From IMG/VR virus record IMGVR_UViG_2925891887_000008: 38,557 nucleotides of DNA, one strand, 5' to 3'. Shown here one piece after another: positions 23,793 to 36,748 of the stretch. The position numbers were made by a program, and so were the translations under genes. The notes under the pieces are model-generated. The model searched no databases. It was given only the letters and a program-made list of their open reading frames with translations, and was not told where the DNA came from. Each line of letters begins with the position of its first letter. Positions within the stretch are counted from its first letter, which is position 1. Origin of the DNA: a virus (lineage: Duplodnaviria; Heunggongvirae; Uroviricota; Caudoviricetes).

Positions 23793-25559
23793 ATGAACAC
23801 CACACTGACACTCGCAGATCTCGATCCCCGTCGGCAGGCCATGCTGCTGTACTTTCAGGGATACCGCGTAGCCCGCATTGCTGAAATGCTGGGCGAGAAA
23901 GTTTCAACCGTTCACAGCTGGAAAAAACGCGACAAGTGGGGTGACTATGGGCCGCTGGATCAGATGCAGCTCACCACCGCCGCACGCTACTGCCAGCTCA
24001 TTATGAAGGAGCACAAAGAAGGGAAAGATTTCAAAGAGATTGACCTGCTGGCGCGCCAGTCGGAACGCCACGCGCGGATCGGCAAGTTTAACAATGGCGG
24101 CAACGAAGCCGACTTAAACCCTAACGTCGCCAACCGCAACAAAGGCCCACGCCGTCAGCCGGAAAAGAACGTTTTCACCGATGAACAGATTGAGAAGCTG
24201 GAAGAAATCTTCCATTCCTCCATGTTCAACTACCAGCGCCACTGGTGGGAAGCTGGAAAAACCAACCGCATCCGCAACCTGCTGAAGTCACGCCAGATCG
24301 GCGCGACCTTTTACTTTGCCCGTGAAGCCCTGATTGACGCCCTGCTTACCGGACGTAACCAGATTTTCCTTTCCGCCAGTAAGGCACAGGCTCACGTCTT
24401 TAAGCAGTACATCATCGACTTCGCTAAAGAAGTGGAGGTGGAGCTGAAAGGCGATCCGATGGTGCTTCCTAACGGGGCCACGCTTTACTTCCTCGGCACC
24501 AATGCCCGCACGGCCCAGAGTTATCACGGCAACCTGTATCTGGATGAATATTTCTGGATACCGAAATTCCAGGAGCTGCGCAAAGTGGCTTCCGGTATGG
24601 CTATTCACAAAAAATGGCGACAAACCTATTTTTCCACGCCATCCAGCCTGACACACAGTGCTTATCCGTTCTGGTCCGGTGCGCTGTTCAACCGTGGGCG
24701 CAACAAAGCCGATAAGGTGGACATCGACCTGTCCCACAGCAATCTGGCCCCCGGCCTGCTGTGCGCAGACGGGCAATACCGCCAGATAGTCACCGTAGAA
24801 GATGCGGTGCGCGGCGGCTGTAACCTGTTCGACCTTGACCAGTTGCGCATGGAATACAGCCCGGACGAATACCAGAACCTGCTGATGTGTGAGTTCGTGG
24901 ACGATCTCGCGTCCGTGTTCCCGCTCAGCGAGCTGCAGGCGTGCATGGTGGACAGTTGGGAAGTCTGGACCGACTTTCATGCACTGGCCCTGCGCCCGTT
25001 TGGCTGGCGCGAAGTGTGGATCGGTTATGACCCGGCAAAAGGTACGCAGAACGGCGACAGCGCCGGATGCGTGGTGGTGGCACCGCCAGCCGTGCCGGGC
25101 GGTAAGTTCCGCATTCTTGAGCGTCACCAGTGGCGCGGAATGGACTTCCGCGCCCAGGCTGACGCCATCAAAAAACTGACCGAACAGTATAACGTGACCT
25201 ATATCGGCATCGACTCGACCGGCGTCGGTCACGGGGTTTACGAGAACGTGAAAGCGTTTTTTCCTGCCGTCAGGGAGTTTGTCTACAACCCCAACGTTAA
25301 AAACGCCCTGGTACTCAAGGCCTACGACATTATCAGCCACCGCCGTCTGGAGTTTGACGCCGGGCACACCGACATTGCGCAGTCATTTATGGCAATCCGT
25401 CGCGCCACCACCGCCAGCGGCAACCGCCCGACCTATGAAGCCAGCCGCAGCGAAGAAGCCAGCCACGCCGATCTGGCCTGGGCAACGATGCACGCATTGT
25501 TTAACGAACCGCTGCAGGGCGAATCCGCCAATACCAGCAATATTGTGGAGATTTTTTGA
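23793..25559 (+). CDS. P: Terminase ATPase (large) subunit P
   Basis: 588-aa ORF; N-terminus MNTTLTLADLDPRRQAMLLYFQGYR... typical of P2-family P. Confidence 0.9.
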   Translation: MNTTLTLADLDPRRQAMLLYFQGYRVARIAEMLGEKVSTVHSWKKRDKWGDYGPLDQMQLTTAARYCQLIMKEHKEGKDFKEIDLLARQSERHARIGKFNNGGNEADLNPNVANRNKGPRRQPEKNVFTDEQIEKLEEIFHSSMFNYQRHWWEAGKTNRIRNLLKSRQIGATFYFAREALIDALLTGRNQIFLSASKAQAHVFKQYIIDFAKEVEVELKGDPMVLPNGATLYFLGTNARTAQSYHGNLYLDEYFWIPKFQELRKVASGMAIHKKWRQTYFSTPSSLTHSAYPFWSGALFNRGRNKADKVDIDLSHSNLAPGLLCADGQYRQIVTVEDAVRGGCNLFDLDQLRMEYSPDEYQNLLMCEFVDDLASVFPLSELQACMVDSWEVWTDFHALALRPFGWREVWIGYDPAKGTQNGDSAGCVVVAPPAVPGGKFRILERHQWRGMDFRAQADAIKKLTEQYNVTYIGIDSTGVGHGVYENVKAFFPAVREFVYNPNVKNALVLKAYDIISHRRLEFDAGHTDIAQSFMAIRRATTASGNRPTYEASRSEEASHADLAWATMHALFNEPLQGESANTSNIVEIF

Positions 25560-26626
25560 TGGGAAAGAGTAAGAAGAACCGCGCTGCGGCGACGAAACAG
25601 ATCCAGCTTAAAAGCCAGACTACAGCCGAAGCATTCAGCTTCGGCGATCCCGTTCCTGTTCTGGACCGCCGAGAACTGCTGGACTATGTGGAATGCGTAC
25701 AGATGGACCGTTGGTATGAGCCGCCCGTCAGCTTTGACGGACTGGCGCGCACCTTCCGCGCTGCCGTGCATCACAGTTCCCCGATTGCAGTAAAGTGCAA
25801 CATTCTGACCAGTACCTATATCTCTCATCCACTGCTCAGCCAACAGGCTTTTTCGCGTTTTGTGCAGGACTATCTGGTATTTGGTAACGCCTACCTGGAG
25901 AAACGCACGAATCGATTCGGTGAAGTTATCGCCCTTGAGCCTGCGCTGGCAAAATACACCCGACGCGGGTTAGACCTGGATACCTACTGGTTTGTGCAAT
26001 ACGGTATGGCCACGCAGCCGTATCAGTTCACGAAAGGCAGCATTTTTCATCTGATGGAACCGGACATCAACCAGGAGATCTACGGCCTGCCCGGTTATCT
26101 TTCAGCCATTCCGTCCGCCCTGCTCAATGAGTCCGCCACGCTGTTCCGTCGAAAGTATTACATTAACGGCAGTCATGCTGGCTTCATCATGTACATGACC
26201 GACGCTGCGCAGAACCAGGAGGATGTGAACAACCTCCGCAACGCGATGAAAAGCGCCAAAGGTCCAGGCAACTTCCGCAATCTGTTTATGTACTCGCCTA
26301 ACGGCAAAAAGGACGGACTTCAGATTATCCCGTTGTCAGAAGTCGCAGCGAAGGATGAGTTTCTGAATATCAAGAACGTGAGCCGCGATGACATGATGGC
26401 TGCGCATCGTGTGCCGCCACAAATGATGGGGATAATTCCCCAGAACATCGGCGGCTTTGGGGATGTAAGCAAAGCAAGTAAGGTATTTGTTCGTAACGAA
26501 CTGACGCCTTTACAAAGGCGAATACAAGAACTTAATGAGTGGCTATGTGACGAGGTTATCAAGTTTGACCCCTACAAACTTGATATTGAAGATAACAATC
26601 ACTCTGCTATCATACCTATCATCTAA
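25556..26626 (+). CDS. Q: Portal protein Q
   Basis: 356-aa ORF overlapping the P stop (ATGA). Confidence 0.9.
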   Translation: MMGKSKKNRAAATKQIQLKSQTTAEAFSFGDPVPVLDRRELLDYVECVQMDRWYEPPVSFDGLARTFRAAVHHSSPIAVKCNILTSTYISHPLLSQQAFSRFVQDYLVFGNAYLEKRTNRFGEVIALEPALAKYTRRGLDLDTYWFVQYGMATQPYQFTKGSIFHLMEPDINQEIYGLPGYLSAIPSALLNESATLFRRKYYINGSHAGFIMYMTDAAQNQEDVNNLRNAMKSAKGPGNFRNLFMYSPNGKKDGLQIIPLSEVAAKDEFLNIKNVSRDDMMAAHRVPPQMMGIIPQNIGGFGDVSKASKVFVRNELTPLQRRIQELNEWLCDEVIKFDPYKLDIEDNNHSAIIPII

Positions 26627-26631
26627 ATTTC

Positions 26632-26655
26632 AACCGCCATCAGGCGGTTTTTTGT
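26632..26655 (+). terminator. Intrinsic terminator after Q
   Basis: AACCGCC-ATCA-GGCGGTT hairpin followed by TTTTTTG. Confidence 0.6.
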
Positions 26656-26710
26656 TTCCAAACCAAACCTACTATGATACACACAGTAGGAAAAAAATTG
26701 GAGCATTTAT

Positions 26711-27337
26711 ATGGATATCGAAAAGCTAAAAGAATTTTACGAAAAACTTTACTTTCAGGAAACGGAAAATAAAGACAAGATTTACAACAGAATTCAAATG
26801 ATATTTGGATTAATAGTAATCGACGCAACTATCGTAACATATCTGCTTAAAAACACATCCTTTGAAAATCATGCATTCTTTGCCTGCATTGTTATAGGAC
26901 TTTCATTATTATCAGTGTTTTTTATTTATAAAGCCTGCATGCTCCTAAAAAAAGCATTTTGGGGTAATGAATTCAAATACATTCCCAAACCTAAGGAAAT
27001 AGACGAATACTACAATGGCCTCATTAAATATGAAGCAGACTATAAAAAATATTGTGATAATAATGGGCTTACCTATAATGGTGAGCACTCATCAAGTAAA
27101 AAGTTCAATGAATACTTAGTAAAACAACTAGTAGAGTGTACTAGTTGGAATACTAAGAAAAATGAAATGAGAACAAGTCAAATATATCGAGCCACTAAAT
27201 TCTTTTTTTTCTCACTAATTCCATTAGTGATAGCGGTTGGCTTTTTTTTAGCGATGGATCTCGATTCAGCCTCGCCAAGGAAGACTAATGAGCCACATTT
27301 CATTATTATACCTGTAGATAATATCAGGAGATTATGA
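26711..27337 (+). CDS. AT-rich cargo membrane protein (208 aa, about three TM helices), unknown function
   Basis: RBS GGAG, ATG at 26711; hydrophobic segments at about residues 30-46, 55-73 and 164-182. Confidence 0.5.
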   Translation: MDIEKLKEFYEKLYFQETENKDKIYNRIQMIFGLIVIDATIVTYLLKNTSFENHAFFACIVIGLSLLSVFFIYKACMLLKKAFWGNEFKYIPKPKEIDEYYNGLIKYEADYKKYCDNNGLTYNGEHSSSKKFNEYLVKQLVECTSWNTKKNEMRTSQIYRATKFFFFSLIPLVIAVGFFLAMDLDSASPRKTNEPHFIIIPVDNIRRL

Positions 27338-27462
27338 TGGGAAAAGCCCCTACACCTAACAAGCCACCAGCGAAGACTCCAACTCCGCCGACACCGCCGA
27401 CACCGCCTAAATCTAGGCTAGTGAGAGACGATGATTCGAAAGCCAAAAGCAAAAGAGGTTAA
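27334..27462 (+). CDS. Proline-rich micro-protein a (42 aa; KTPTPPTPPTPPK core, SRLVRD motif)
   Basis: ATG overlaps the upstream stop (ATGA), RBS AGGAG; 9-bp in-frame repeats. Confidence 0.4.
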   Translation: MMGKAPTPNKPPAKTPTPPTPPTPPKSRLVRDDDSKAKSKRG

Positions 27463-27468
27463 AGTATC

Positions 27469-27642
27469 ATGATAAAGCCCAGCAACGAAGGAACTGGAAA
27501 ACCAAATTCTACAAGTAAATCACCTGTACCGCCTCAGCCGCCTCAGCCGCCTCAGCCGCCTCAGCCGCCTCAAACAAGGTTAGTACGAGAAAGCTTTGGA
27601 GAATACATTTCAAAGAGAGATACGAAAAATGACAAAAAATAA
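27469..27642 (+). CDS. Proline-rich micro-protein b (57 aa; (PPQ)5 core, TRLVRE motif)
   Basis: RBS AGAGG, ATG at 27469; (CAGCCGCCT)x4 tandem repeat. Confidence 0.4.
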   Translation: MIKPSNEGTGKPNSTSKSPVPPQPPQPPQPPQPPQTRLVRESFGEYISKRDTKNDKK

Positions 27643-27736
27643 CGAGCAAAAACCACCACCACCACCACCACCACCACCACTACCACCATCGTCCCGCATG
27701 CTATTTGATCACGCGGCCCCCCCTAAGAAGAAATAA
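27629..27736 (+). CDS. Proline-rich micro-protein c (35 aa; P9-L-PP core, SRMLFD motif)
   Basis: ATG at 27629 overlapping the end of b; (CCA)n tract. Confidence 0.35.
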   Translation: MTKNNEQKPPPPPPPPPLPPSSRMLFDHAAPPKKK

Positions 27737-27778
27737 CCTTAAGCCTGCGACTTAGCAGGCTTTCTTCATTAGCGCGCG

Positions 27779-27797
27779 CTCGTATCCCCGCCACGCC
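27779..27797. other. Candidate cos site (19-nt cohesive end)
   Basis: CTCGTATCCCCGCCACGCC closely resembles my recollection of the P2/186 cos core (complement GGCGTGGCGGGGA...); lies between Q and A as expected. Confidence 0.35.
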
Positions 27798-28139
27798 TGC
27801 CCGCTTTATGTAGTGGTTTTCATGCAGGTGCATGATCTACGCAAAAGCCCGCCAGTTCTGGCGGGCCTTAGCAAAAACGATCCTCAAACGATCATGCAAT
27901 CTCATGCAGCATAGACATGCACAGACGAGTAAAGCGAATCGGACTTTACGCAAGGTGAACTCCTCAGCGGGCATAATCAGTATGTCGGAAGATCTCTAAA
28001 AATGAATAATTCGGTTAACAGGTATGCTTACAAAAGCATATATTTGATTAAAAATCATGTAAGGGGGAGGATCTCAAACTGAATCGCCACGGGTTTTACA
28101 AATTTCGATAGTCTCTCTAACGTTTCGGCTGAGGTCAAA

Positions 28140-28565
28140 ATGAAAAGCTTTTACGTATTAATTTTAATTCTGGTTGCAAGCTTTGTTAGCGTCCCAGTTC
28201 AGGCGGTAACAGCTAAAAACTATGAGAAAGGAACTAAAGCTCAACAGAAATCAATATCTTACCTTTCATGTGCATTCTATGGCAGTAGCACACAATTAGA
28301 TCCTAGCTACACGGAGCAAGTACCTACAGCCGATATCAAGATATTACAGAAAGCAGCTTACCACGCTTACAACGATGCGCTCTCATACTTTGGCTATGAG
28401 GAACCAGATCACGAACAACGCATAATTGATTATGCTGAATTTGTGGCGTCGCAAGAAGCTGTGTTATGGGATAAGCCGGGAATGAATGGAAAGCAGGTAA
28501 CACTAATTGCTCGTTCTCTCTACAATGAGAGTAACTGTAACTTGTTACTGGACTCAATTAAGTAG
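28140..28565 (+). CDS. AT-rich cargo secreted protein (141 aa, Sec signal peptide), unknown function
   Basis: RBS GAGGT, ATG at 28140; N-terminal hydrophobic signal with ...VQA/V cleavage-like site. Confidence 0.5.
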   Translation: MKSFYVLILILVASFVSVPVQAVTAKNYEKGTKAQQKSISYLSCAFYGSSTQLDPSYTEQVPTADIKILQKAAYHAYNDALSYFGYEEPDHEQRIIDYAEFVASQEAVLWDKPGMNGKQVTLIARSLYNESNCNLLLDSIK

Positions 28566-28724
28566 GAAAAAGATGGTATTTTGCCCGTAGTTTCAACCTT
28601 AATCTCCGAACCTGTCGCAGAACGGGCGTTCACTCATCAAATAAACGCCACACCTAACGCCTCACTGTACTCGTTGTTCAACCTTGCTGACGCCAGAACC
28701 AAGTTCAGACGCCAGCAACTTTTC

Positions 28725-28958
28725 TTAATGCAGCCAGCTGTCGTCTTCCCACACCTTCTGCATAATCTTCATCACTTGTTTTCTTTCTTCGTCCAGTTGC
28801 AGTCCGGTCAGTTCCACACCGTTAGAGCTACCTTTGCGGATGCGAATTACCGTTTTGGGATACAGGGGGCGCAGATTGCGGTAAAGCTCGGATTCAAGGG
28901 CGTCCAGGGTAGACTGGCTAATCTTCTGCTCTTTATCGATCATTATTTCAATGCGCAT
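28725..28958 (-). CDS. dinI: DinI-family protein (DNA-damage-inducible protein I-like)
   Basis: MRIEIMIDKEQKIS...LDALESEL...KVWEDDSW parallels E. coli DinI; start taken at the internal Met. Confidence 0.75.
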   Translation of the reverse strand: MRIEIMIDKEQKISQSTLDALESELYRNLRPLYPKTVIRIRKGSSNGVELTGLQLDEERKQVMKIMQKVWEDDSWLH

Positions 28959-28968
28959 AAAGGTCACC

Positions 28969-29157
28969 TCAGCTGATGACATCCATTGAGCGGTTGTATT
29001 CGTGGGTTCTGATTTTTGCCATGAGTTCATCTGTCAGTTCAGAAACCCACTGCAAAGCCAGCCCCTTCTCTTCATCACTACACTCACTAGCCGCTACAAG
29101 CTTAAGAAAAAAATCAATGCGCTGGAGCTTCAAAGACTCCAAAAAATAGTCCTGCAT
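28969..29157 (-). CDS. Small SOS-controlled ORF (62 aa) upstream of dinI-like gene; possible Tum-like antirepressor N-module
   Basis: RBS GGAGG, ATG at 29157, LexA box about 45 bp upstream. Confidence 0.4.
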   Translation of the reverse strand: MQDYFLESLKLQRIDFFLKLVAASECSDEEKGLALQWVSELTDELMAKIRTHEYNRSMDVIS

Positions 29158-29200
29158 CTTTCCTCCTATGACACCACAAGCAATACTGTATACATAACCA

Positions 29201-29216
29201 CTGTTTATATTTACAG
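29201..29216. promoter_or_regulatory. LexA box (CTGTTTATATTTACAG)
   Basis: Perfect CTGT-N8-ACAG with AT-rich spacer, upstream of the minus-strand small ORF and dinI-like gene. Confidence 0.6.
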
Positions 29217-29310
29217 CACATAATAATCTTACTGATGTAAAACGTTTTTTTACGTTCATTAGCCTGATATGCCTGGTATTATTAAGAGCACGAATTGTTA
29301 ACCCGCGTAA

Positions 29311-31725
29311 TTAATACAGGTTTCGCCACTTATCATCTTCCTGCAAACGCTGGTTCCGATAGAAGATACGCAGGCCTGCTCCTGACGGAATACTGCCGCC
29401 GCGAAGGAGTAAATCGACCTCTTTCTCGCTGCCATTAAATCCTCTGGACTTCAGTTCATAGACGAGCTGCTGTCGCTGATGGTCTGTAATTCGCTGTTTG
29501 TAGTCTTTACGCCGTTTCGGTTTCACCAGGCGTAACCTTGCAGCCAGTTCCCGGCGCTCTTTTTTGCTCATACTGTGCAGGTAATCGTGCAACTCCTTGT
29601 CATCCATGCGGGTAATGTCCGTCCTAGTATCCCCATCAGCTGATTTGTCTTTCCCTTGTTGGTTCAAATTTTCAGCAAGGGGACAGTTATTGCCACGAGT
29701 CCAAGGGGCGCAAGCGCCCTGGTCGGCTGCCGCCTCCTGAACGTCAACGGCCTTACGAACCATTTTCCACTTCACCGCATGAGTGCAGATCTTGCCCTCT
29801 GCAATGGGTGACCAGATGCCATAAATACGAATACCGTGATCGCCATATGCGGTCGGTTCTTCGTTGATTTCATAAGCAGTTCTGATGAGGTGATATTTGC
29901 GGGGAACCAGTACGCCTCCCTGCTTCATGATGTAGGTGGCAAAACAACCAGCATCGGCAGCAGCCAGGATTGCATCAAGGCGCGGGTTATCCAGTACCGG
30001 CGCACCTGCTTTTTTGTCCCCCTGTTGCCTTGCCGCCTGACCAGCCAGCAATCGCAGTTCACGGTAAGCCTGACGCCCCGGAATGCCAAAGAAGCGGAAT
30101 TGCTGAACACGATGCAGAGACGCCCAGGCATTAACGTATTCAGCGTTATCACGCAGGGATTTACCCGTTTCCTTGCTGATCTCGCCAGCCAGACCACGCC
30201 CGTCAATGTTCTTACTGATGTATTTCGCGATGTAGCTTGTTGGCGTACCTTTGCGCGGGTTTATCAGCTCAGACTTAAAGCGTGGTCCCGTGTTATTACC
30301 CAGCTCCTCGCGGTCTTCACGAATGGCAAACTTACGCAACAAAGCAGTAATGGTGCGGCGATCTTTTTTGCGCATAAAACACAACAGGTGCCAGTGAACT
30401 GTACCGTCATGATGCGGCTCAGCCACCCGCACGCCATACCAGCGCAATCCGGCTTTGTGCATCGCCTTACGAAATGCAGCAAACATGCCGACCAGATAAT
30501 CACTGCTTTGTCTTACCGTCGTATTTGTCCAGGTCGGGTTGGGCCTGCCGTTATTTAGCGTGGAATGGAAACGTGACGGACAGGTGATGGTGTAGAAAAC
30601 GGCGCAGTCACCGCGCATTTCCGCGATAAGCTCCAGACCTTTAACACAGGCCATCATCTCATTGCGGCGATGCGCAGGGTTGCTGCTGCTGGCGTTTACC
30701 ACATCCTCCATGTCCAGCGTGTCGCCGTCTTCGTTCACCAGTTCATGAGAACGGAAAAACTCCAGCGACTTACGGCGCTGCTCACGTTTATGCATCATGG
30801 CTTCATAGCTGACATAGGGAGATGCTTTTTTGCTGACCAGGCAAACAGCACGCAACTGCTCTTCCCGCCATTCGCAACGCATCTTCCATAATTTCCGGTA
30901 CCACCAATCGGCGCACAACATACGCGCCAGCGAACCCGGAATGAGTTCATAGGGCACGGGTTTACGGCGGTTTCTTTTCCGGCGGAGTTGCTCAAACGCA
31001 GGCGGTATGACATCCAGTCGCAGGGTTTCTGCTGCCACCTTTTCCCATGTCTTGCGGATTTCTTCTGGCTTAACGTCATCGGTGGCATACAAATCGCCAC
31101 AAGCTGCATCAAGGCACATGCTCATATGCGCAGCAACAAGGGTGGACAGGCGTTTCACCTGATCCTGACTCATTTCAGGCAGAATCAGCAGGCCGTCCAG
31201 CCCTTCATGGCTTGCCATAAAGCGAAAAGAAGTGGATAGCTGACTGTCGCGTACATGCTCCAGCCGTTCCAGACATGGCTTAATCGTCTCACGTAAATAG
31301 CGGGAATAAGCCTTTGGCCTGCCAAGGCTGCTGAAGTATTCAATACGTTGCATCAGCGGCCTGCTGATATGGGAAGGCTGGGCGTTAACGTCTGCCAGAA
31401 TGACCATGTCCGGGTTAAAACGCTGCTGCTCATGCGCCAACTTTGCCCGGCTAATGAACTTATCCTGCTCCATTTCGCGCTGGACAGGATCACGGGATTC
31501 ATTAAAGAAATAACGCTCCCAAACCTGATCACTCAGTGCCTCGCGGCGCAGTTGTTCCTGCTCGTTATCGGCAGCGTACAGAGTGATCAGGTTTGAAAGC
31601 GCAGAAACCGGCGCAACTTCCGCCGGGTCCAGATAAGGGTTAATAGCCTTTTTCGGGCTGTTCCATGAGAATGCTGCGGCGGCCTCGTTAAAGCCGCTGC
31701 AGTTGTTCATATCAGCATGGCTCAT
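29311..31725 (-). CDS. A: Replication initiation endonuclease A (rolling-circle)
   Basis: 804-aa ORF at the P2 gene A position, upstream of cos. Confidence 0.85.
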
Positions 31726-33616: not shown

Positions 33617-34126
33617 TCACAGCAAACCGAATGAAGCACCGAGGCCAGTCACGGTATCAACTGCACTCGCCATTGCAGGATTAGCCTGTAAACGGGCCTG
33701 CAATGAAACAGCAGCCAGCGCCATCAGTCGTGTTACAGAGTTAATGCTGCTGATAGCATCACGACGACCGGCACTAGTTTTTACATCACCAGATACCGCA
33801 CCTGCTGCAACACGTCCGATCTCTGCAGTTGCGCTCATGACGTAATGCGGCAGTTTCTCTTTTGCAACCTCATTAATCGGTACACATGGCAGGCAGTGAA
33901 TCTGTGCCAGAAAACCATCTACCAGCGTTGAATCTTCAGTCAGATCGGTAAGCAGCCAGATTTCTGGTGCGGTTAATAAATGAGGCTGAGCTGGGTTCAG
34001 CTTGTTCCGCAGAATCTGCACATTCATGCCTGCACGTTCTGCCAGTTGCACCAGATTGTGGCGCAGTGCAAATGCACGACAGGCTTCATCAAAATGTGGA
34101 TGTTTGGAAACTTGGTAATCAAACAT
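33617..34126 (-). CDS. cII: CII regulatory protein (186-like)
   Basis: [24 protein letters not shown]... closely matches remembered 186 CII. Confidence 0.75.
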
Positions 34127-34158
34127 GGTCAATGCCTCTGATGTATTTCAGAATCGAA

Positions 34159-34380
34159 CTAATTAAGGTTTAGATTGCATTCTGAAAGCGCATCAACGGT
34201 CATGGCTGCTATGTTGATCATCACTTTTTCGCGTTTTTTATCTTTGCGCAAACGGTGACGGATAAGGCGTCCATCAGCCAACATGTCATTGATGGTATCG
34301 ATGGACAGTCCTGTCAGCTCGCTATAGCGTTCAATAGTCACATGAGGCGTGGTAAGAGTGATTGAAATGTTAGGTCTCAT
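34159..34380 (-). CDS. apl: Apl/Cox-like excisionase and transcriptional regulator
   Basis: 73-aa basic protein, first gene of the early operon, divergent from cI. Confidence 0.6.
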
Positions 34381-34505: not shown

Positions 34506-35075
34506 ATGAATTTGGAGAAAGGCGGACGAGGCGCTATAGAGCGCATGGTAGAAGCTTATGGATTCAAAACTCGACAGGCGTTGTGCGATCATTTAGGAAT
34601 CTCTAAAAGTACACTCGCTACACGCTACATGCGTGACTCATTCCCAGCAGAATGGGTAATCCAGTGCGCCCTTGAAACGGGCACCTCGCTTAATTGGCTC
34701 ACAACTGGACATGGTTCAAAGCAAACTTCAGGTAATACAAATACGATGGAAGTTGCTAAATATGTATTATCTGATGGTGCCTTGCGTGAAGACGGTTTTT
34801 ATATTTTTGATAAGGGATTTCTACCCTCTACGTTTAAAAAACCTTTTGTCATCACAGATAACAATTCTGAATTTATTTGTGATAAAGAATTTGATGATAT
34901 ACGTGATGGTAAATGGGTAATAAGTATTGATGGCGAAATAACAATCCGCGACATTACTCGTTTACCCGGTGGAAGAATCTTCGTTGAAGGTGGAAACAGA
35001 ACCTTCGAGTGCAAGATAGAAGATGTTGAAATAATTGGAAAAATTATAAGTTTGACAATTAAGTACGTTAGGTAA
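34506..35075 (+). CDS. cI: CI immunity repressor (186-like)
   Basis: 189-aa protein with N-terminal HTH-like region (EAYGFKTRQALCDHLGISKSTLATRY), RBS GGAG; the track ORF starts 6 nt upstream at a GTG. Confidence 0.8.
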   Translation: MNLEKGGRGAIERMVEAYGFKTRQALCDHLGISKSTLATRYMRDSFPAEWVIQCALETGTSLNWLTTGHGSKQTSGNTNTMEVAKYVLSDGALREDGFYIFDKGFLPSTFKKPFVITDNNSEFICDKEFDDIRDGKWVISIDGEITIRDITRLPGGRIFVEGGNRTFECKIEDVEIIGKIISLTIKYVR

Positions 35076-35282: not shown

Positions 35283-35425
35283 TTTTTGCTTTTATATCTG
35301 CGCCTAATATAACAATGAGCCGCAGGCTAACCGCAAAAGTCACATACTCACATAGCAAAAAATAGCCAACTTCATTATGGCTTCAGTGAGATGTATGGTC
35401 GCAAGATTTCATACATTGACACTGG

Positions 35426-35433
35426 TTATACAT
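35426..35433. repeat. ISL3-family element target-site duplication, left copy (TTATACAT)
   Basis: Identical 8-mer flanks both ends of the element. Confidence 0.75.
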
Positions 35434-36748
35434 GGGTCTTCCCTTGTTGTGGTGGCTGAAGGCATGATAATGGTGTATTTAATCGCCAGAGGTCACCGCC
35501 ATGGACGAAAAGTCCCTCTACGCTCATATTCTCAACCTGTCCGATCCGTGGCAGGTAAAGTCCCTTTCTCTCGATGAAAATGCCGGTTCTGTTACTGTCA
35601 CTATTGAGATCGCTGAAAACACCCGGCTAGCCTGTCCGACCTGCGGTAAATCCTGTTCTGTTCACGATCACCGTCATCGTAAATGGCGCCATCTTGATAC
35701 CTGCCAGTTCACCACTATTGTTGAAGCCGATGTTCCACGAATTATGTGTCCGGAGCATGGCTGCCTGACGTTGCCTGTTCCGTGGGCTGGCCCCGGAAGC
35801 CGGTATACGTTGCTATTCGAATCGTTCGTTCTCTCATGGCTGAAAATCAGCACCGTTGATGCTGTCAGGAAGCAACTTAAGCTCAGTTGGAATGCGGTTG
35901 ACGGCATTATGACCCGGGCAGTTAAGCGAGGTCTTGCCCGGATAAAAAAGCCATTATCCGCCCGTCATATGAATGTGGATGAGGTCGCCTTTAAAAAAGG
36001 ACATCGTTACATAACGGTGATCTCCGATCGCGATGGTCGGGCGCTGGCCTTAACGGATGATCGCGGCACAGAGAGTCTTGCCGGCTATCTTCGCACGCTC
36101 ACTGATGGGCAGTTGCTGGCTATCAAAACGCTCTCAATGGACATGAACGCGGGCTATATAAGAGCAGCGCGTATCCACTTACCCAGTGCGGTTGAGAAAA
36201 TCGCCTTTGACCGCTTCCATGTGGCGAAGCAACTGGGCGAGGTAGTTGATAAAACCCGTCAGAATGAACATCCGCACCTCCCTGTTGAAAGCCGACACCA
36301 GGCAAAAGGAACCCGCTTCCTGTGGCAGTACAGCGATAAGTGGATGACCGAATCCCGGCAGGAAAAGCTGATGTGGCTGCGTGCACAGATGAAGCTGACG
36401 AGCCAGTGCTGGGCGCTGAAAGAGCTGGCAAAGGATATCTGGAACAGGCCATGGAGCGAGGAAAGACGGAGTGACTGGCAGAGATGGTTGGCGCTGGCGG
36501 CTAACAGTGACGTTCCCATGATGAAAAATGCCGCGAAAACGATAGGAAAAAGGCTGTACGGGATCCTGAATGCGATGCGACACAGTGTCTCAAACGGAAA
36601 TGCGGAGGCACTTAACAGCAAGATCAGGCTGCTGAGGATAAAAGCCAGGGGATACCGAAACCGGGAGCGCTTTAAACTGGGGGTGATGTTCCACTACGGA
36701 AAGCTGAATATGGCGTTCTGAGCCTTCCCACCATGATCGGGGAAGACC
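35434..36748 (+). mobile_element. ISL3-family insertion sequence (1315 bp)
   Basis: Imperfect terminal inverted repeats GGGTCTTCCC..TGGTGG at both ends, single transposase ORF, 8-bp duplication. Confidence 0.8.
35501..36721 (+). CDS. ISL3-family transposase
   Basis: 406-aa ORF with N-terminal zinc-ribbon-like CPTCG...CPEHGC and a DDE-like core. Confidence 0.8.
   Translation: MDEKSLYAHILNLSDPWQVKSLSLDENAGSVTVTIEIAENTRLACPTCGKSCSVHDHRHRKWRHLDTCQFTTIVEADVPRIMCPEHGCLTLPVPWAGPGSRYTLLFESFVLSWLKISTVDAVRKQLKLSWNAVDGIMTRAVKRGLARIKKPLSARHMNVDEVAFKKGHRYITVISDRDGRALALTDDRGTESLAGYLRTLTDGQLLAIKTLSMDMNAGYIRAARIHLPSAVEKIAFDRFHVAKQLGEVVDKTRQNEHPHLPVESRHQAKGTRFLWQYSDKWMTESRQEKLMWLRAQMKLTSQCWALKELAKDIWNRPWSEERRSDWQRWLALAANSDVPMMKNAAKTIGKRLYGILNAMRHSVSNGNAEALNSKIRLLRIKARGYRNRERFKLGVMFHYGKLNMAF

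What the first reader, a model, noticed from the sequence alone, without database searches (positions are those of the whole stretch)
28725..29216. LexA-box-controlled two-gene operon (small ORF plus DinI-like gene), likely the 186-type SOS induction (Tum-like) module
A perfect CTGT-N8-ACAG LexA box (29201-29216) sits about 45 bp upstream of a 62-aa ORF with RBS GGAGG, followed 10 bp later by a DinI-family gene. In coliphage 186 the SOS-inducible antirepressor Tum is LexA-regulated, encoded near the right genome end, and I recall its C-terminal part being DinI-like. This pair may therefore be a split Tum-type antirepressor coupling induction to DNA damage, consistent with the 186-like CI/Apl/CII switch.
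Basis: partly seen in the sequence, partly recalled or inferred. Interest (0 to 1): 0.5.

Follow-up and report, generated by a model that had tools for sequence, protein, structure and literature searches.

The report
Split Tum SOS-induction operon of prophage
This is the DNA-damage switch of a Fels-2/186-type prophage: a LexA-repressed promoter drives a small antirepressor-like gene and a DinI-like gene, an arrangement already described for phages Fels-2 and PSP3, so it is real but ordinary.

Summary
On the minus strand, the only exact CTGT-N8-ACAG in the window (29216..29201) lies 43 nt upstream of a 62-aa ORF (29157..28969, RBS GGAGG). Ten nt later comes a 77-aa DinI-family gene (28958..28725, Pfam E 6.6e-23).

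The interpretation also holds. The window is a Fels-2-like prophage with a 186-type CI/Apl/CII switch. The small ORF is 98.4% identical to Fels-2 STM2728, and the DinI gene is 100% identical to its Fels-2 neighbour.

BLASTP finds no similarity between the small ORF and 186 Tum. Profile methods do: hhalign gives 94.9% probability, E 4.5e-8, residues 3-44 to 3-44, and PHROG cross-hits agree.

The literature already states that Fels-2 and PSP3 carry tum split by a stop codon. In PSP3 the upstream half (tumA) is reported as the antirepressor and the downstream half (tumB) as the DinI homologue. The Fels-2 operon is induced 5-15-fold by a mutagen.

Verdict: already known; low interest.

Side observations:
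- The operator is a colicin-type pair of overlapping LexA boxes.
- A nearly invariant TumA is paired with at least 20 divergent CI types.
- This copy has a rare change at the inferred -10.

The parts
29236..29241 (-). Inferred -35 hexamer TTTACA of the SOS (p95-type) promoter
   Evidence: TTTACA, a 17-nt spacer and then TACTGT are conserved in Fels-2, 500465-1, SopEphi, Kp ST437phi4.1 and Yp MLG42. The spacer keeps its length while its sequence diverges. The layout is analogous to 186 p95, annotated as TTCACA-N18-TACTGT. The generic promoter scan did not call it.
29213..29218 (-). Inferred -10 position. It reads TGCTGT here and TACTGT in Fels-2 and its relatives, and it overlaps the left end of LexA box 1.
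   Evidence: Alignment. The window's allele was found in 1 IMG/VR contig, against at least 120 for the Fels-2 allele. The assignment rests on analogy and conservation, not on a mapped transcription start.
29201..29216 (-). LexA box 1, CTGTAAATATAAACAG (exact CTGT-N8-ACAG)
   Evidence: The weight-matrix score of 21.7 bits is the best in the window.
29186..29201 (-). LexA box 2, GTGGTTATGTATACAG. It overlaps box 1 by one nucleotide and aligns with the single box of 186, PSP3 and YenM.
   Evidence: It scores 15.4 bits, second best in the window and within the range of the weaker sites used to build the matrix. It is conserved in six Fels-2-type phages. The 35-nt pair is about 90% identical to the two overlapping SOS boxes upstream of colicin genes on small plasmids, such as pCol-Let colicin Y.
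29162..29166 (-). Ribosome-binding site GGAGG of the small ORF
   Evidence: Read directly. AGGAGG is conserved before the start codon in relatives.
28969..29157 (-). tumA-like gene: a 62-aa predicted helical hairpin, the inferred antirepressor
   Evidence: It is 98.4% identical to Fels-2 STM2728 and 100% identical to many Klebsiella and E. coli phage copies. It matches phrog_698 at 3.6e-38. hhalign to 186 Tum residues 3-44 gives 94.9% probability, E 4.5e-8. The AlphaFold2 model shows two helices (2-23 and 28-61) at pLDDT 88.
28725..28958 (-). tumB / dinI-like gene, 77 aa
   Evidence: Pfam DinI E 6.6e-23. It is 100% identical to the Fels-2 DinI-family protein, 78% to PSP3 TumB and 41% to 186 Tum residues 71-145. 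It matches E. coli DinI (1GHH) at E 2.7e-6.
28643..28718 (.). Two hairpins downstream of the operon, at 28718..28684 and 28662..28643. They are possible terminators between the convergent genes.
   Evidence: The RNA fold gives -32.3 kcal/mol, z -1.86. The first hairpin is followed by a T-run on the plus strand, and the second by a TTTATTT-type tail on the minus strand. The terminator scan called neither. Weak evidence.
34506..35075 (+). 186-type CI repressor, the inferred target of TumA (context, outside the finding)
   Evidence: PF07022 at 2.7e-33 plus PF16452 at 1.1e-28, with no other Pfam hit and hence no S24 peptidase domain. It is 32% identical to 186 CI and 37% to Fels-2 CI.
33617..34380 (-). 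apl/cox-like gene (34380..34159) and cII-like gene (34132..33617) (context)
   Evidence: phrog_575 'Cox-like excisionase and repressor' at 6.1e-31 and phrog_101 'CII-like activator' at 3.3e-57.
29311..31725 (-). Replication endonuclease gene A, immediately upstream (context)
   Evidence: An 804-aa ORF, annotated as replication endonuclease or gpA in every matching phage record.

Best explanation
The locus is the SOS operon of a Fels-2-like (186/P2-family) prophage, in the split-tum form. A sigma-70 promoter just downstream of replication gene A is overlapped by two LexA boxes that share one nucleotide.

In an undamaged lysogen, LexA keeps the promoter shut. DNA damage activates RecA, LexA cleaves itself, and the operon is transcribed.

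The first product is a 62-aa helical hairpin homologous to the N-terminal part of 186 Tum and to PSP3 TumA. It binds the 186-type CI repressor non-covalently and keeps it off its operators. The early lytic promoter then fires, and Apl and the replication genes are expressed. CI has no self-cleavage domain.

The second product is a DinI homologue equivalent to the C-terminal half of 186 Tum. It binds RecA filaments and tunes the strength or duration of the SOS signal. It is not needed for antirepression.

Shown here: the sequence anatomy, the homologies, conservation of the operator, and identity to the Fels-2 genes. Taken from the literature: SOS induction of the Fels-2 operon, LexA dependence of Fels-2 lethality, and antirepressor activity of 186 Tum and of PSP3 tumA. 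Inferred: that this particular TumA inactivates this particular CI, and that both LexA boxes are occupied.
For: Anatomy and LexA sites.

Identity to Fels-2:
- The small ORF is 98.4% identical to Fels-2 STM2728.
- The DinI-like protein is 100% identical to its Fels-2 counterpart.
- The gene order is the same: A, small ORF, dinI.

Homology to Tum:
- hhalign gives 94.9% probability, E 4.5e-8, residues 3-44 in register.
- PHROG cross-hits are reciprocal.
- BLASTP against a Yersinia phage protein annotated 'tum protein' gives E 9e-8.
- The DinI-like protein matches the Tum C-terminal half at 41% identity, E 3e-24.

Database records and literature:
- The 186 record annotates p95, a LexA site, tum ('inhibits CI DNA binding') and shorter in-frame DinI-like products ('modulates SOS induction').
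- The PSP3 record annotates tumA ('similar to 5' end 186 tum; UV induction of prophage') and tumB ('similar to dinI and 3' end of 186 tum').
- PMC3121763 says Fels-2 and PSP3 have tum split by a stop codon, with the PSP3 upstream gene encoding the antirepressor. It also says non-polar dinI deletions in Gifsy phages did not affect induction.
- PMC2225428 Table 4 shows Fels-2 STM2727 induced 5.5-, 11.1- and 14.8-fold by the mutagen MX, and lists STM2726-STM2727-STM2728 among its operons.
- PMC12626290 summarises Bunny 2002: survivors of a lexA null mutation had all lost Fels-2.

Support for TumA as the autonomous unit: three relatives (YenM_06.16-2, ESSI2_ev015, Cronobacter ESSI-2) have a LexA box and a tumA-like ORF but no dinI within the fetched flanks.

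Repressor type: CI is of the 186 type, and the scan found no domain other than PF07022 and PF16452.
Against: - No experiment bears on this exact element.
- Pairwise BLASTP finds no similarity between the small ORF and 186 Tum or PSP3 TumA. The profile match to PSP3 TumA is weak, at E 0.0039 and 8.6% probability.
- The antirepressor activity of the upstream half rests on a personal communication about PSP3, cited second-hand.
- The generic promoter scan found no promoter on this strand.
- The inferred -10 in this copy reads TGCTGT and lacks the A at its second position, so the promoter may be weak.
- The window's CI is only 37% identical to Fels-2 CI although TumA is 98% identical. That this TumA acts on this CI is therefore assumed, not shown.
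- There is no orf97 or STM2726 homologue downstream as in 186 and Fels-2.
Confidence: 0.82

Rival explanations
1. The DinI-like protein, not the small ORF, causes induction, for example by altering RecA filament activity. On this view the small ORF is an accessory protein or a leader ORF.
For: The DinI-like domain is the only part with an easily recognisable family. PHROG and GenBank annotations label the whole 186 Tum as 'RecA filament binding protein DinI'.
Against: - CI has no S24 autocleavage domain on which RecA could act.
- Three relatives keep the LexA box and the tumA-like ORF but have no dinI.
- In PSP3 the upstream gene is reported as the antirepressor, and dinI deletions in Gifsy phages do not change induction.
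- The 186 record assigns 'inhibits CI DNA binding' only to the full-length product that contains the N-terminal part.
Confidence: 0.05
2. The module is present but no longer functions as an induction switch in this copy. The promoter carries a down-mutation at the -10, and an IS element separates cI from int. The operon would then be a relic, or would serve only as an SOS-modulating (DinI) cargo gene for the host.
For: - The -10 position reads TGCTGT instead of the conserved TACTGT. This allele is rare: 1 IMG/VR contig against at least 120.
- There is a precedent. A single -10 SNP in the dinI-gfoA promoter abolishes Gifsy-1 induction in strain D23580 (PMC5322425).
- An ISKox3 (ISL3-family) transposase gene lies at 35501..36721 between cI and int.
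Against: - Both ORFs are intact and identical or nearly identical to those of phages in the INPHARED collection.
- The same 621-nt sequence is 100% identical in several complete E. coli genomes, so the allele persists.
- The -10 assignment is inferred, not mapped.
- LexA's own operator tolerates TGCTGT (own knowledge).
Confidence: 0.1
3. The LexA box is a chance match and the two ORFs are expressed only by read-through from the early lytic operon (gene A). They would then have no role in sensing DNA damage.
For: One exact CTGT-N8-ACAG per 38.5 kb is within chance expectation (0.52). No canonical terminator was found between gene A and the operon.
Against: - The two best LexA-matrix scores in the window are adjacent at this spot.
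- A strong box is conserved at the same position in ten relatives despite diverged flanks.
- The Fels-2 orthologue is among the most strongly mutagen-induced LexA-regulon genes.
Confidence: 0.02

Closest known systems
Fels-2 (Salmonella LT2) STM2728 and the DinI-family gene STM2727/STM2726.1
   Same: Essentially the same module. The small ORF is 98.4% identical and the DinI-like protein 100% identical. Both follow gene A, and both have the same dual LexA boxes and the same TTTACA-N17 promoter layout. The Fels-2 operon is SOS- and mutagen-induced, and Fels-2 makes a lexA null mutation lethal.
   Different: The window has TGCTGT where Fels-2 has TACTGT at the inferred -10. It lacks the orf97-like STM2726 downstream. 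Its CI is only 37% identical to Fels-2 CI.
PSP3 tumA / tumB
   Same: Both have a split arrangement of a small upstream gene and a dinI-like downstream gene under a LexA box after gene A. TumB is 78% identical. tumA is annotated as responsible for UV induction.
   Different: The window's small ORF and PSP3 TumA are only marginally similar: hhalign E 0.0039, phrog_1993 hit at 2.2e-3, no BLASTP hit. PSP3 has a single LexA box.
Coliphage 186 Tum (146 aa) and the p95 SOS operon
   Same: Both have a LexA-controlled promoter after gene A. The N-terminal antirepressor region is homologous to the small ORF, and the C-terminal DinI-like half is 41% identical to the second gene. Both phages have a 186-type CI/Apl/CII switch.
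   Different: In 186 the two parts are fused in one polypeptide, and internal starts give the shorter DinI-like products. 186 has a single LexA box, and orf97 follows tum. Here there are two cistrons, two boxes and no orf97.
Gifsy prophage dinI-gfoA/gftA LexA-controlled antirepressor operons
   Same: A LexA-repressed operon outside the immunity region encodes a small antirepressor plus a DinI homologue, and the repressor is not cleaved (PMC3121763).
   Different: The gene order is reversed, with dinI first. The phages are lambdoid and have different repressor and antirepressor families.
Colicin promoters with two overlapping SOS boxes (e.g. colicin Y on pCol-Let)
   Same: The operator architecture is the same: two 16-nt LexA boxes sharing one nucleotide. 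The 42-nt match to the window operator is 88-91% identical, and box 2 is identical. In colicins this pair binds two LexA dimers and prevents untimely lethal expression (PMC2994835).
   Different: In colicins the boxes lie downstream of a TTGACA-N17 promoter and control a toxin gene. Here box 1 overlaps the inferred -10 and controls an antirepressor. Whether the similarity reflects descent or convergence is undetermined.
E. coli DinI (PDB 1GHH)
   Same: Same family and same length (PF06183; E 2.7e-6 over residues 1-75).
   Different: Identity is only about 29%. It is phage-borne and translationally adjacent to an antirepressor gene. RecA binding was not tested.

Membership tests
186-type Tum SOS induction module (split tumA/tumB form) | LexA operator overlapping the promoter immediately upstream of the gene(s) | tested here: met
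   An exact box lies at 29216..29201 and a second box at 29201..29186. They are the two best matrix scores in the window, and the site is conserved in ten relatives. LexA binding itself cannot be tested with these tools.
186-type Tum SOS induction module (split tumA/tumB form) | Position downstream of replication gene A, at the end of the early region and before the portal gene | tested here: met
   Gene A is at 31725..29311 (-) and the operon at 29157..28725 (-). The portal gene is at 25556..26626 (+), with a cargo region between. The order is the same in 186, PSP3 and Fels-2.
186-type Tum SOS induction module (split tumA/tumB form) | Sequence homology of the small protein to the N-terminal (non-DinI) part of 186 Tum | tested here: met
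   hhalign gives 94.9% probability, E 4.5e-8, residues 3-44 to 3-44. 186 Tum residues 1-70 hit phrog_698 at 5.9e-6. Pairwise BLASTP is negative, so the relationship is remote.
186-type Tum SOS induction module (split tumA/tumB form) | DinI-like part homologous to the C-terminal half of Tum | tested here: met
   41% identity over 75 residues, E 3e-24.
186-type Tum SOS induction module (split tumA/tumB form) | Cognate repressor of the 186 CI type, lacking a RecA-stimulated self-cleavage domain | tested here: met
   PF07022 and PF16452 are the only Pfam hits. CI is 32% identical to 186 CI, E 8e-38.
186-type Tum SOS induction module (split tumA/tumB form) | The protein binds CI and reversibly prevents operator binding, and is required for SOS induction | not testable with these tools
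   Known for 186 Tum (Shearwin et al. 1998, as cited in PMC3121763). For PSP3 tumA it rests on a personal communication. No data exist for this element.
186-type Tum SOS induction module (split tumA/tumB form) | An orf97-like gene downstream in the same operon (present in 186 and Fels-2; not essential to the definition) | tested here: not met
   No minus-strand ORF follows the dinI-like gene. A convergent plus-strand 141-aa ORF (28140..28565) lies there instead. PSP3 also lacks orf97.
DinI family (PF06183) | Pfam model match above the gathering threshold over the full domain | tested here: met
   81.3 bits against a cut-off of 24.2, covering profile positions 1-63 of 63. It also matches E. coli DinI 1GHH.
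DinI family (PF06183) | Binding to RecA filaments and modulation of the SOS response | not testable with these tools
   Inferred from family membership only.
Colicin-type dual overlapping SOS boxes | Two 16-nt LexA boxes sharing one nucleotide | tested here: met
   Box 1 is at 29216..29201 and box 2 at 29201..29186. An ungapped alignment with the colicin Y promoter shows about 90% identity.
Colicin-type dual overlapping SOS boxes | Binding of two LexA dimers, giving tight repression | not testable with these tools
   Known for colicin operators (PMC2994835). Not tested for this promoter.

The most novel reading that the evidence does not exclude
The Fels-2-type TumA may be a broad-specificity antirepressor. 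On this reading it recognises the conserved N-terminal DNA-binding domain of many different 186-type CI repressors. A single SOS-induced TumA could then cross-induce co-resident prophages that carry different CI types.

Its expression may also be held by a colicin-type double LexA lock, which would give all-or-none, late induction.

The evidence so far is correlative. Across 68 loci, TumA is 92-100% identical while CI falls into 20 clusters below 90% identity, ranging from 37% to 100% identity to the window's CI. The CI N-terminal domain is far more conserved than the C-terminal domain (0.71 against 0.39 mean identity).
Probability: 0.3. Interest if true: 0.45.

Novelty: already known. Interest (0 to 1): 0.15.

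Why it matters
The module tells an annotator that this prophage is probably SOS-inducible through an antirepressor rather than through repressor cleavage. That bears on prophage mobilisation by DNA-damaging antibiotics. The same 621-nt region is found in about a fifth of complete E. coli genomes (1124 of 5426) and in many Klebsiella and Salmonella phages.

PGAP and most phage records still label the 62-aa gene 'hypothetical protein', and one labels it 'levan regulatory domain protein'. The practical gain is a better name, tumA-like antirepressor. Nothing here changes current understanding of 186/Fels-2 induction.

Tried and rejected
- BLASTP of the small ORF against 186 Tum and PSP3 TumA gave no alignment. 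Profile methods were needed.
- Pfam has no family for the small ORF.
- A sequence search of the PDB with the family profile found nothing.
- Foldseek of the AlphaFold2 helical-hairpin model against the PDB gave only non-significant hits to generic helical hairpins, best E 0.89. It was uninformative.
- An exhaustive phmmer search with the single sequence found 66 cluster representatives, almost all 50-100 aa stand-alone proteins. No fused Tum-length protein was detected at that sensitivity.
- The generic promoter and terminator scan called nothing on the minus strand. The promoter was instead inferred from conservation and from the 186 annotation.
- An Rfam scan of 26600..29400 found no match.
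- tblastn of the neighbouring 141-aa ORF against the phage collection found no match.
- The primary papers, Bunny et al. 2002 (PMC151935) and Shearwin et al. 1998, are not held in the library. Their content is cited second-hand through PMC3121763 and PMC12626290.
- Literature searches for 'TumA'/'TumB', and for dual SOS boxes in prophage antirepressor promoters, returned nothing relevant.
- The idea that the 96-aa ORF starting at 29259 is the real gene was rejected. That start lies upstream of the operator and promoter, and homologues align from the MQD start.
- The LexA weight matrix was built from E. coli sites recalled from memory. Its scores are indicative only.
Full report
**Observation**

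All features lie on the minus strand. The 804-aa replication endonuclease gene A ends at 29311. The sequence CTGTAAATATAAACAG lies at 29216..29201. GGAGG lies at 29166..29162. A 62-aa ORF runs 29157..28969. Ten nucleotides later a 77-aa ORF runs 28958..28725.

The second ORF is a DinI-family protein. Pfam PF06183 scores E 6.6e-23, 81.3 bits against a cut-off of 24.2. The protein also matches E. coli DinI (1GHH) at E 2.7e-6.

The exact CTGT-N8-ACAG motif is unique in the window. On its own it is not improbable, since 0.52 matches are expected per window. Its significance comes from position and conservation, described below.

**Context**

The window is a Fels-2-like member of the P2/186 family (Peduoviridae).
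- A 1.4-kb stretch around the locus is 92-98% identical to many Klebsiella, Escherichia and Salmonella phages of that family.
- The window encodes a 186-type CI repressor at 34506..35075. Its only Pfam hits are PF07022 and PF16452, and it is 32% identical to 186 CI.
- It also encodes an Apl/Cox-like gene and a CII-like gene.
- The portal gene lies beyond a short cargo region.

**What the two genes are**

The small ORF is 98.4% identical to Fels-2 STM2728, and 100% identical to copies in many Klebsiella and E. coli phages. The DinI-like protein is 100% identical to the Fels-2 DinI-family protein, 78% to PSP3 TumB and 41% to residues 71-145 of 186 Tum, the last at E 3e-24.

The 186 record annotates the following after gene A:
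- the SOS promoter p95 and a LexA site;
- tum, described as 'inhibits CI DNA binding';
- shorter in-frame DinI-like products, described as 'modulates SOS induction'.

The PSP3 record annotates two genes at the same place:
- tumA, 'similar to 5' end 186 tum; UV induction of prophage';
- tumB, 'similar to dinI and 3' end of 186 tum'.

**Is the small ORF related to the N-terminal part of Tum?**

BLASTP finds nothing against 186 Tum or PSP3 TumA. Three other lines of evidence do show the relationship.
- The small ORF matches a 60-aa Yersinia phage protein annotated 'tum protein' at E 9e-8.
- PHROG profiles link the groups reciprocally. The small ORF hits phrog_698 (3.6e-38), phrog_8554 (2.4e-8, the Yersinia protein's family) and phrog_1993 (2.2e-3, the PSP3 TumA family). 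186 Tum residues 1-70 hit phrog_1993 (1.5e-23), phrog_8554 (3.4e-12) and phrog_698 (5.9e-6), all in register.
- An exhaustive search gave 66 cluster representatives. A 28-sequence alignment of them has the consensus MxDLFxES..LQRI.L..RLVA...CS..DKELAL.W..ELT.EL. Its profile aligns residues 3-44 with 186 Tum residues 3-44 at 94.9% probability, E 4.5e-8.

The match to PSP3 TumA is weak, at E 0.0039. The homology to the Tum N-terminus is therefore remote but supported.

AlphaFold2 predicts a two-helix hairpin for the small protein at pLDDT 88. Structure and PDB-sequence searches added nothing.

**Literature**

- PMC3121763 (Lemire et al. 2011) states that Tum looks like an antirepressor fused to DinI. 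[quoted passage not shown] E. Christie. It also reports that non-polar dinI deletions in Gifsy phages did not change induction.
- PMC2225428 shows the Fels-2 DinI gene STM2727 induced 5.5-, 11.1- and 14.8-fold by the mutagen MX. It ranks among the top LexA-regulon responders, and STM2726-STM2727-STM2728 is listed as one operon.
- PMC12626290 summarises Bunny et al.: lexA null survivors had all lost Fels-2.
- I could not read Bunny 2002 or Shearwin 1998 directly.

**Operator and promoter**

I built a LexA weight matrix from E. coli sites recalled from memory, so its scores are indicative only. It scores the exact box at 21.7 bits. An adjacent site, GTGGTTATGTATACAG at 29201..29186, scores 15.4 bits. 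These are the two best scores in the window; the next best is 11.0.

The two 16-mers share one nucleotide. Box 2 is the one that aligns with the single, near-consensus box of 186, PSP3 and the Yersinia phage.

The two-box arrangement is conserved in Fels-2, E. coli phage 500465-1, SopEphi, Klebsiella ST437-OXA245phi4.1 and Yersinia MLG42, although their flanks differ. In those five phages TTTACA, a 17-nt spacer of variable sequence, and TACTGT are also conserved. This matches the annotated 186 p95 layout, TTCACA-N18-TACTGT. I therefore place the -35 at 29241..29236 and the -10 at 29218..29213. That is an inference, and the generic scan called no promoter.

**Mechanism**

Shown here are the anatomy, the homologies and the conservation. 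Taken from the literature are LexA control and mutagen induction of the near-identical Fels-2 operon, and antirepression by 186 Tum and PSP3 tumA. The steps below are inferred for this element.
1. LexA occupies both boxes and blocks the promoter.
2. DNA damage removes LexA.
3. TumA is made and sequesters CI, which has no self-cleavage domain.
4. The lytic promoter fires.
5. The DinI-like protein modulates RecA filaments.

Three relatives carry a LexA box and a tumA-like ORF without any dinI gene nearby. This supports the view that the small protein is the autonomous induction factor.

**Rivals**

- DinI as the inducer is unlikely, for the reasons just given.
- A chance LexA box is excluded by conservation.
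- A decayed switch in this particular copy remains possible (about 0.1), because of the -10 change and an IS element next to int, both described below.

**Side observations**

1. The 35-nt operator is about 90% identical, without gaps, to the two overlapping SOS boxes of colicin promoters on small plasmids. In pCol-Let colicin Y the sequence is GCTGTACATAAAACCAGTGGTTATGTATACAGTATT. In colicins this pair binds two LexA dimers and prevents untimely lethal expression (PMC2994835). I found no paper noting this for Fels-2-type phages, but the key 2002 paper was not readable.
2. Among 68 loci with a 92-100% identical TumA, CI falls into 20 clusters below 90% identity, ranging from 37% to 100% identity to the window's CI. 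The CI N-terminal DNA-binding domain is much better conserved than the C-terminal domain, at 0.71 against 0.39 mean identity. This fits a TumA that targets the conserved N-terminal domain and could act across CI types. It is only correlative.
3. The window reads TGCTGT at the inferred -10, where the relatives read TACTGT. The window's allele was found in 1 IMG/VR contig, against at least 120 for the other allele. It is nevertheless 100% identical in several complete E. coli genomes.
4. There is no orf97/STM2726 homologue. A different cargo region follows instead.
5. An ISKox3 (ISL3-family) element sits between cI and int.

**Verdict**

The feature is already known as the split tum (tumA/tumB) SOS operon of Fels-2 and PSP3. 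The same 621-nt region occurs in 1124 of 5426 complete E. coli genomes. Interest is low.

Noticed in passing
window 29184..29218 (- strand): The operator is a pair of LexA boxes sharing one nucleotide. It is about 90% identical, without gaps, to the dual overlapping SOS boxes of colicin promoters such as pCol-Let colicin Y. 186, PSP3, YenM_06.16-2 and ESSI-2 have only one box. I found no paper noting this for Fels-2-type phages, but Bunny et al. 2002 could not be read.
   Followed up: partly
window 28969..29157 compared with 34506..35075; loci L014-L133: TumA is nearly invariant (92-100% identical) across 68 loci, whereas their CI repressors fall into 20 clusters below 90% identity, ranging from 37% to 100% identity to the window's CI. 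The CI N-terminal HTH domain is conserved (mean 0.71) and the C-terminal domain is not (0.39). This suggests a broad-specificity antirepressor acting on the N-terminal domain.
   Followed up: partly
window 29213..29220 (- strand): This copy reads ATGTGCTGT where Fels-2 and four relatives read ATATACTGT. The inferred -10 hexamer therefore changes from TACTGT to TGCTGT. The allele was found in 1 IMG/VR contig, against at least 120 for the common one, yet it is 100% identical in several complete E. coli genomes. It may be a promoter down-mutation, analogous to the Gifsy-1 D23580 -10 SNP (PMC5322425).
   Followed up: partly
window ~35411..36740 (transposase ORF 35501..36721, +): An ISL3-family element (ISKox3-like, 99.5% identical to E. 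coli copies) is inserted between the cI region and int. No complete E. coli genome in the collection holds this junction. The insertion could be polar on int expression. No terminal inverted repeats were found by the repeat tool.
   Followed up: partly
window 28140..28565 (+): A 141-aa ORF with an N-terminal signal-peptide-like segment, convergent with the tum operon, occupies the place of 186 orf97 and Fels-2 STM2726. It matches phrog_7437 (E 4e-99), but it has no Pfam family and no tblastn match in the phage collection. It is probably a cargo (moron) gene.
   Followed up: partly
window 27385..27690: The cargo region contains short tandem repeats: a 9-nt unit CCGCCTCAG x 4.9 at 27529..27572, ACC x 12 at 27652..27688, and CCGCCGACA x 2.6 at 27385..27407. 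In some frames they give Pro-rich runs (PPQ repeats and poly-Pro), and on the opposite strand a poly-Val run. Coding status is unknown.
   Followed up: no
L002 (Yersinia phage vB_YenM_06.16-2), L009 (ESSI2_ev015), L010 (Cronobacter ESSI-2): These P2-family phages have a LexA box and a tumA-like small ORF after gene A but no dinI homologue within the fetched flanks. In ESSI-2 the small ORF is not annotated at all.
   Followed up: yes
window 28684..28718: A strong interrupted hairpin (11 + 4 bp) lies just after the dinI-like stop codon. It is followed by a T-run on the plus strand (CTTTTCTT), so it probably terminates the convergent plus-strand gene. A second hairpin at 28662..28643 has a T-rich tail on the minus strand. 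The scan tool called neither.
   Followed up: partly
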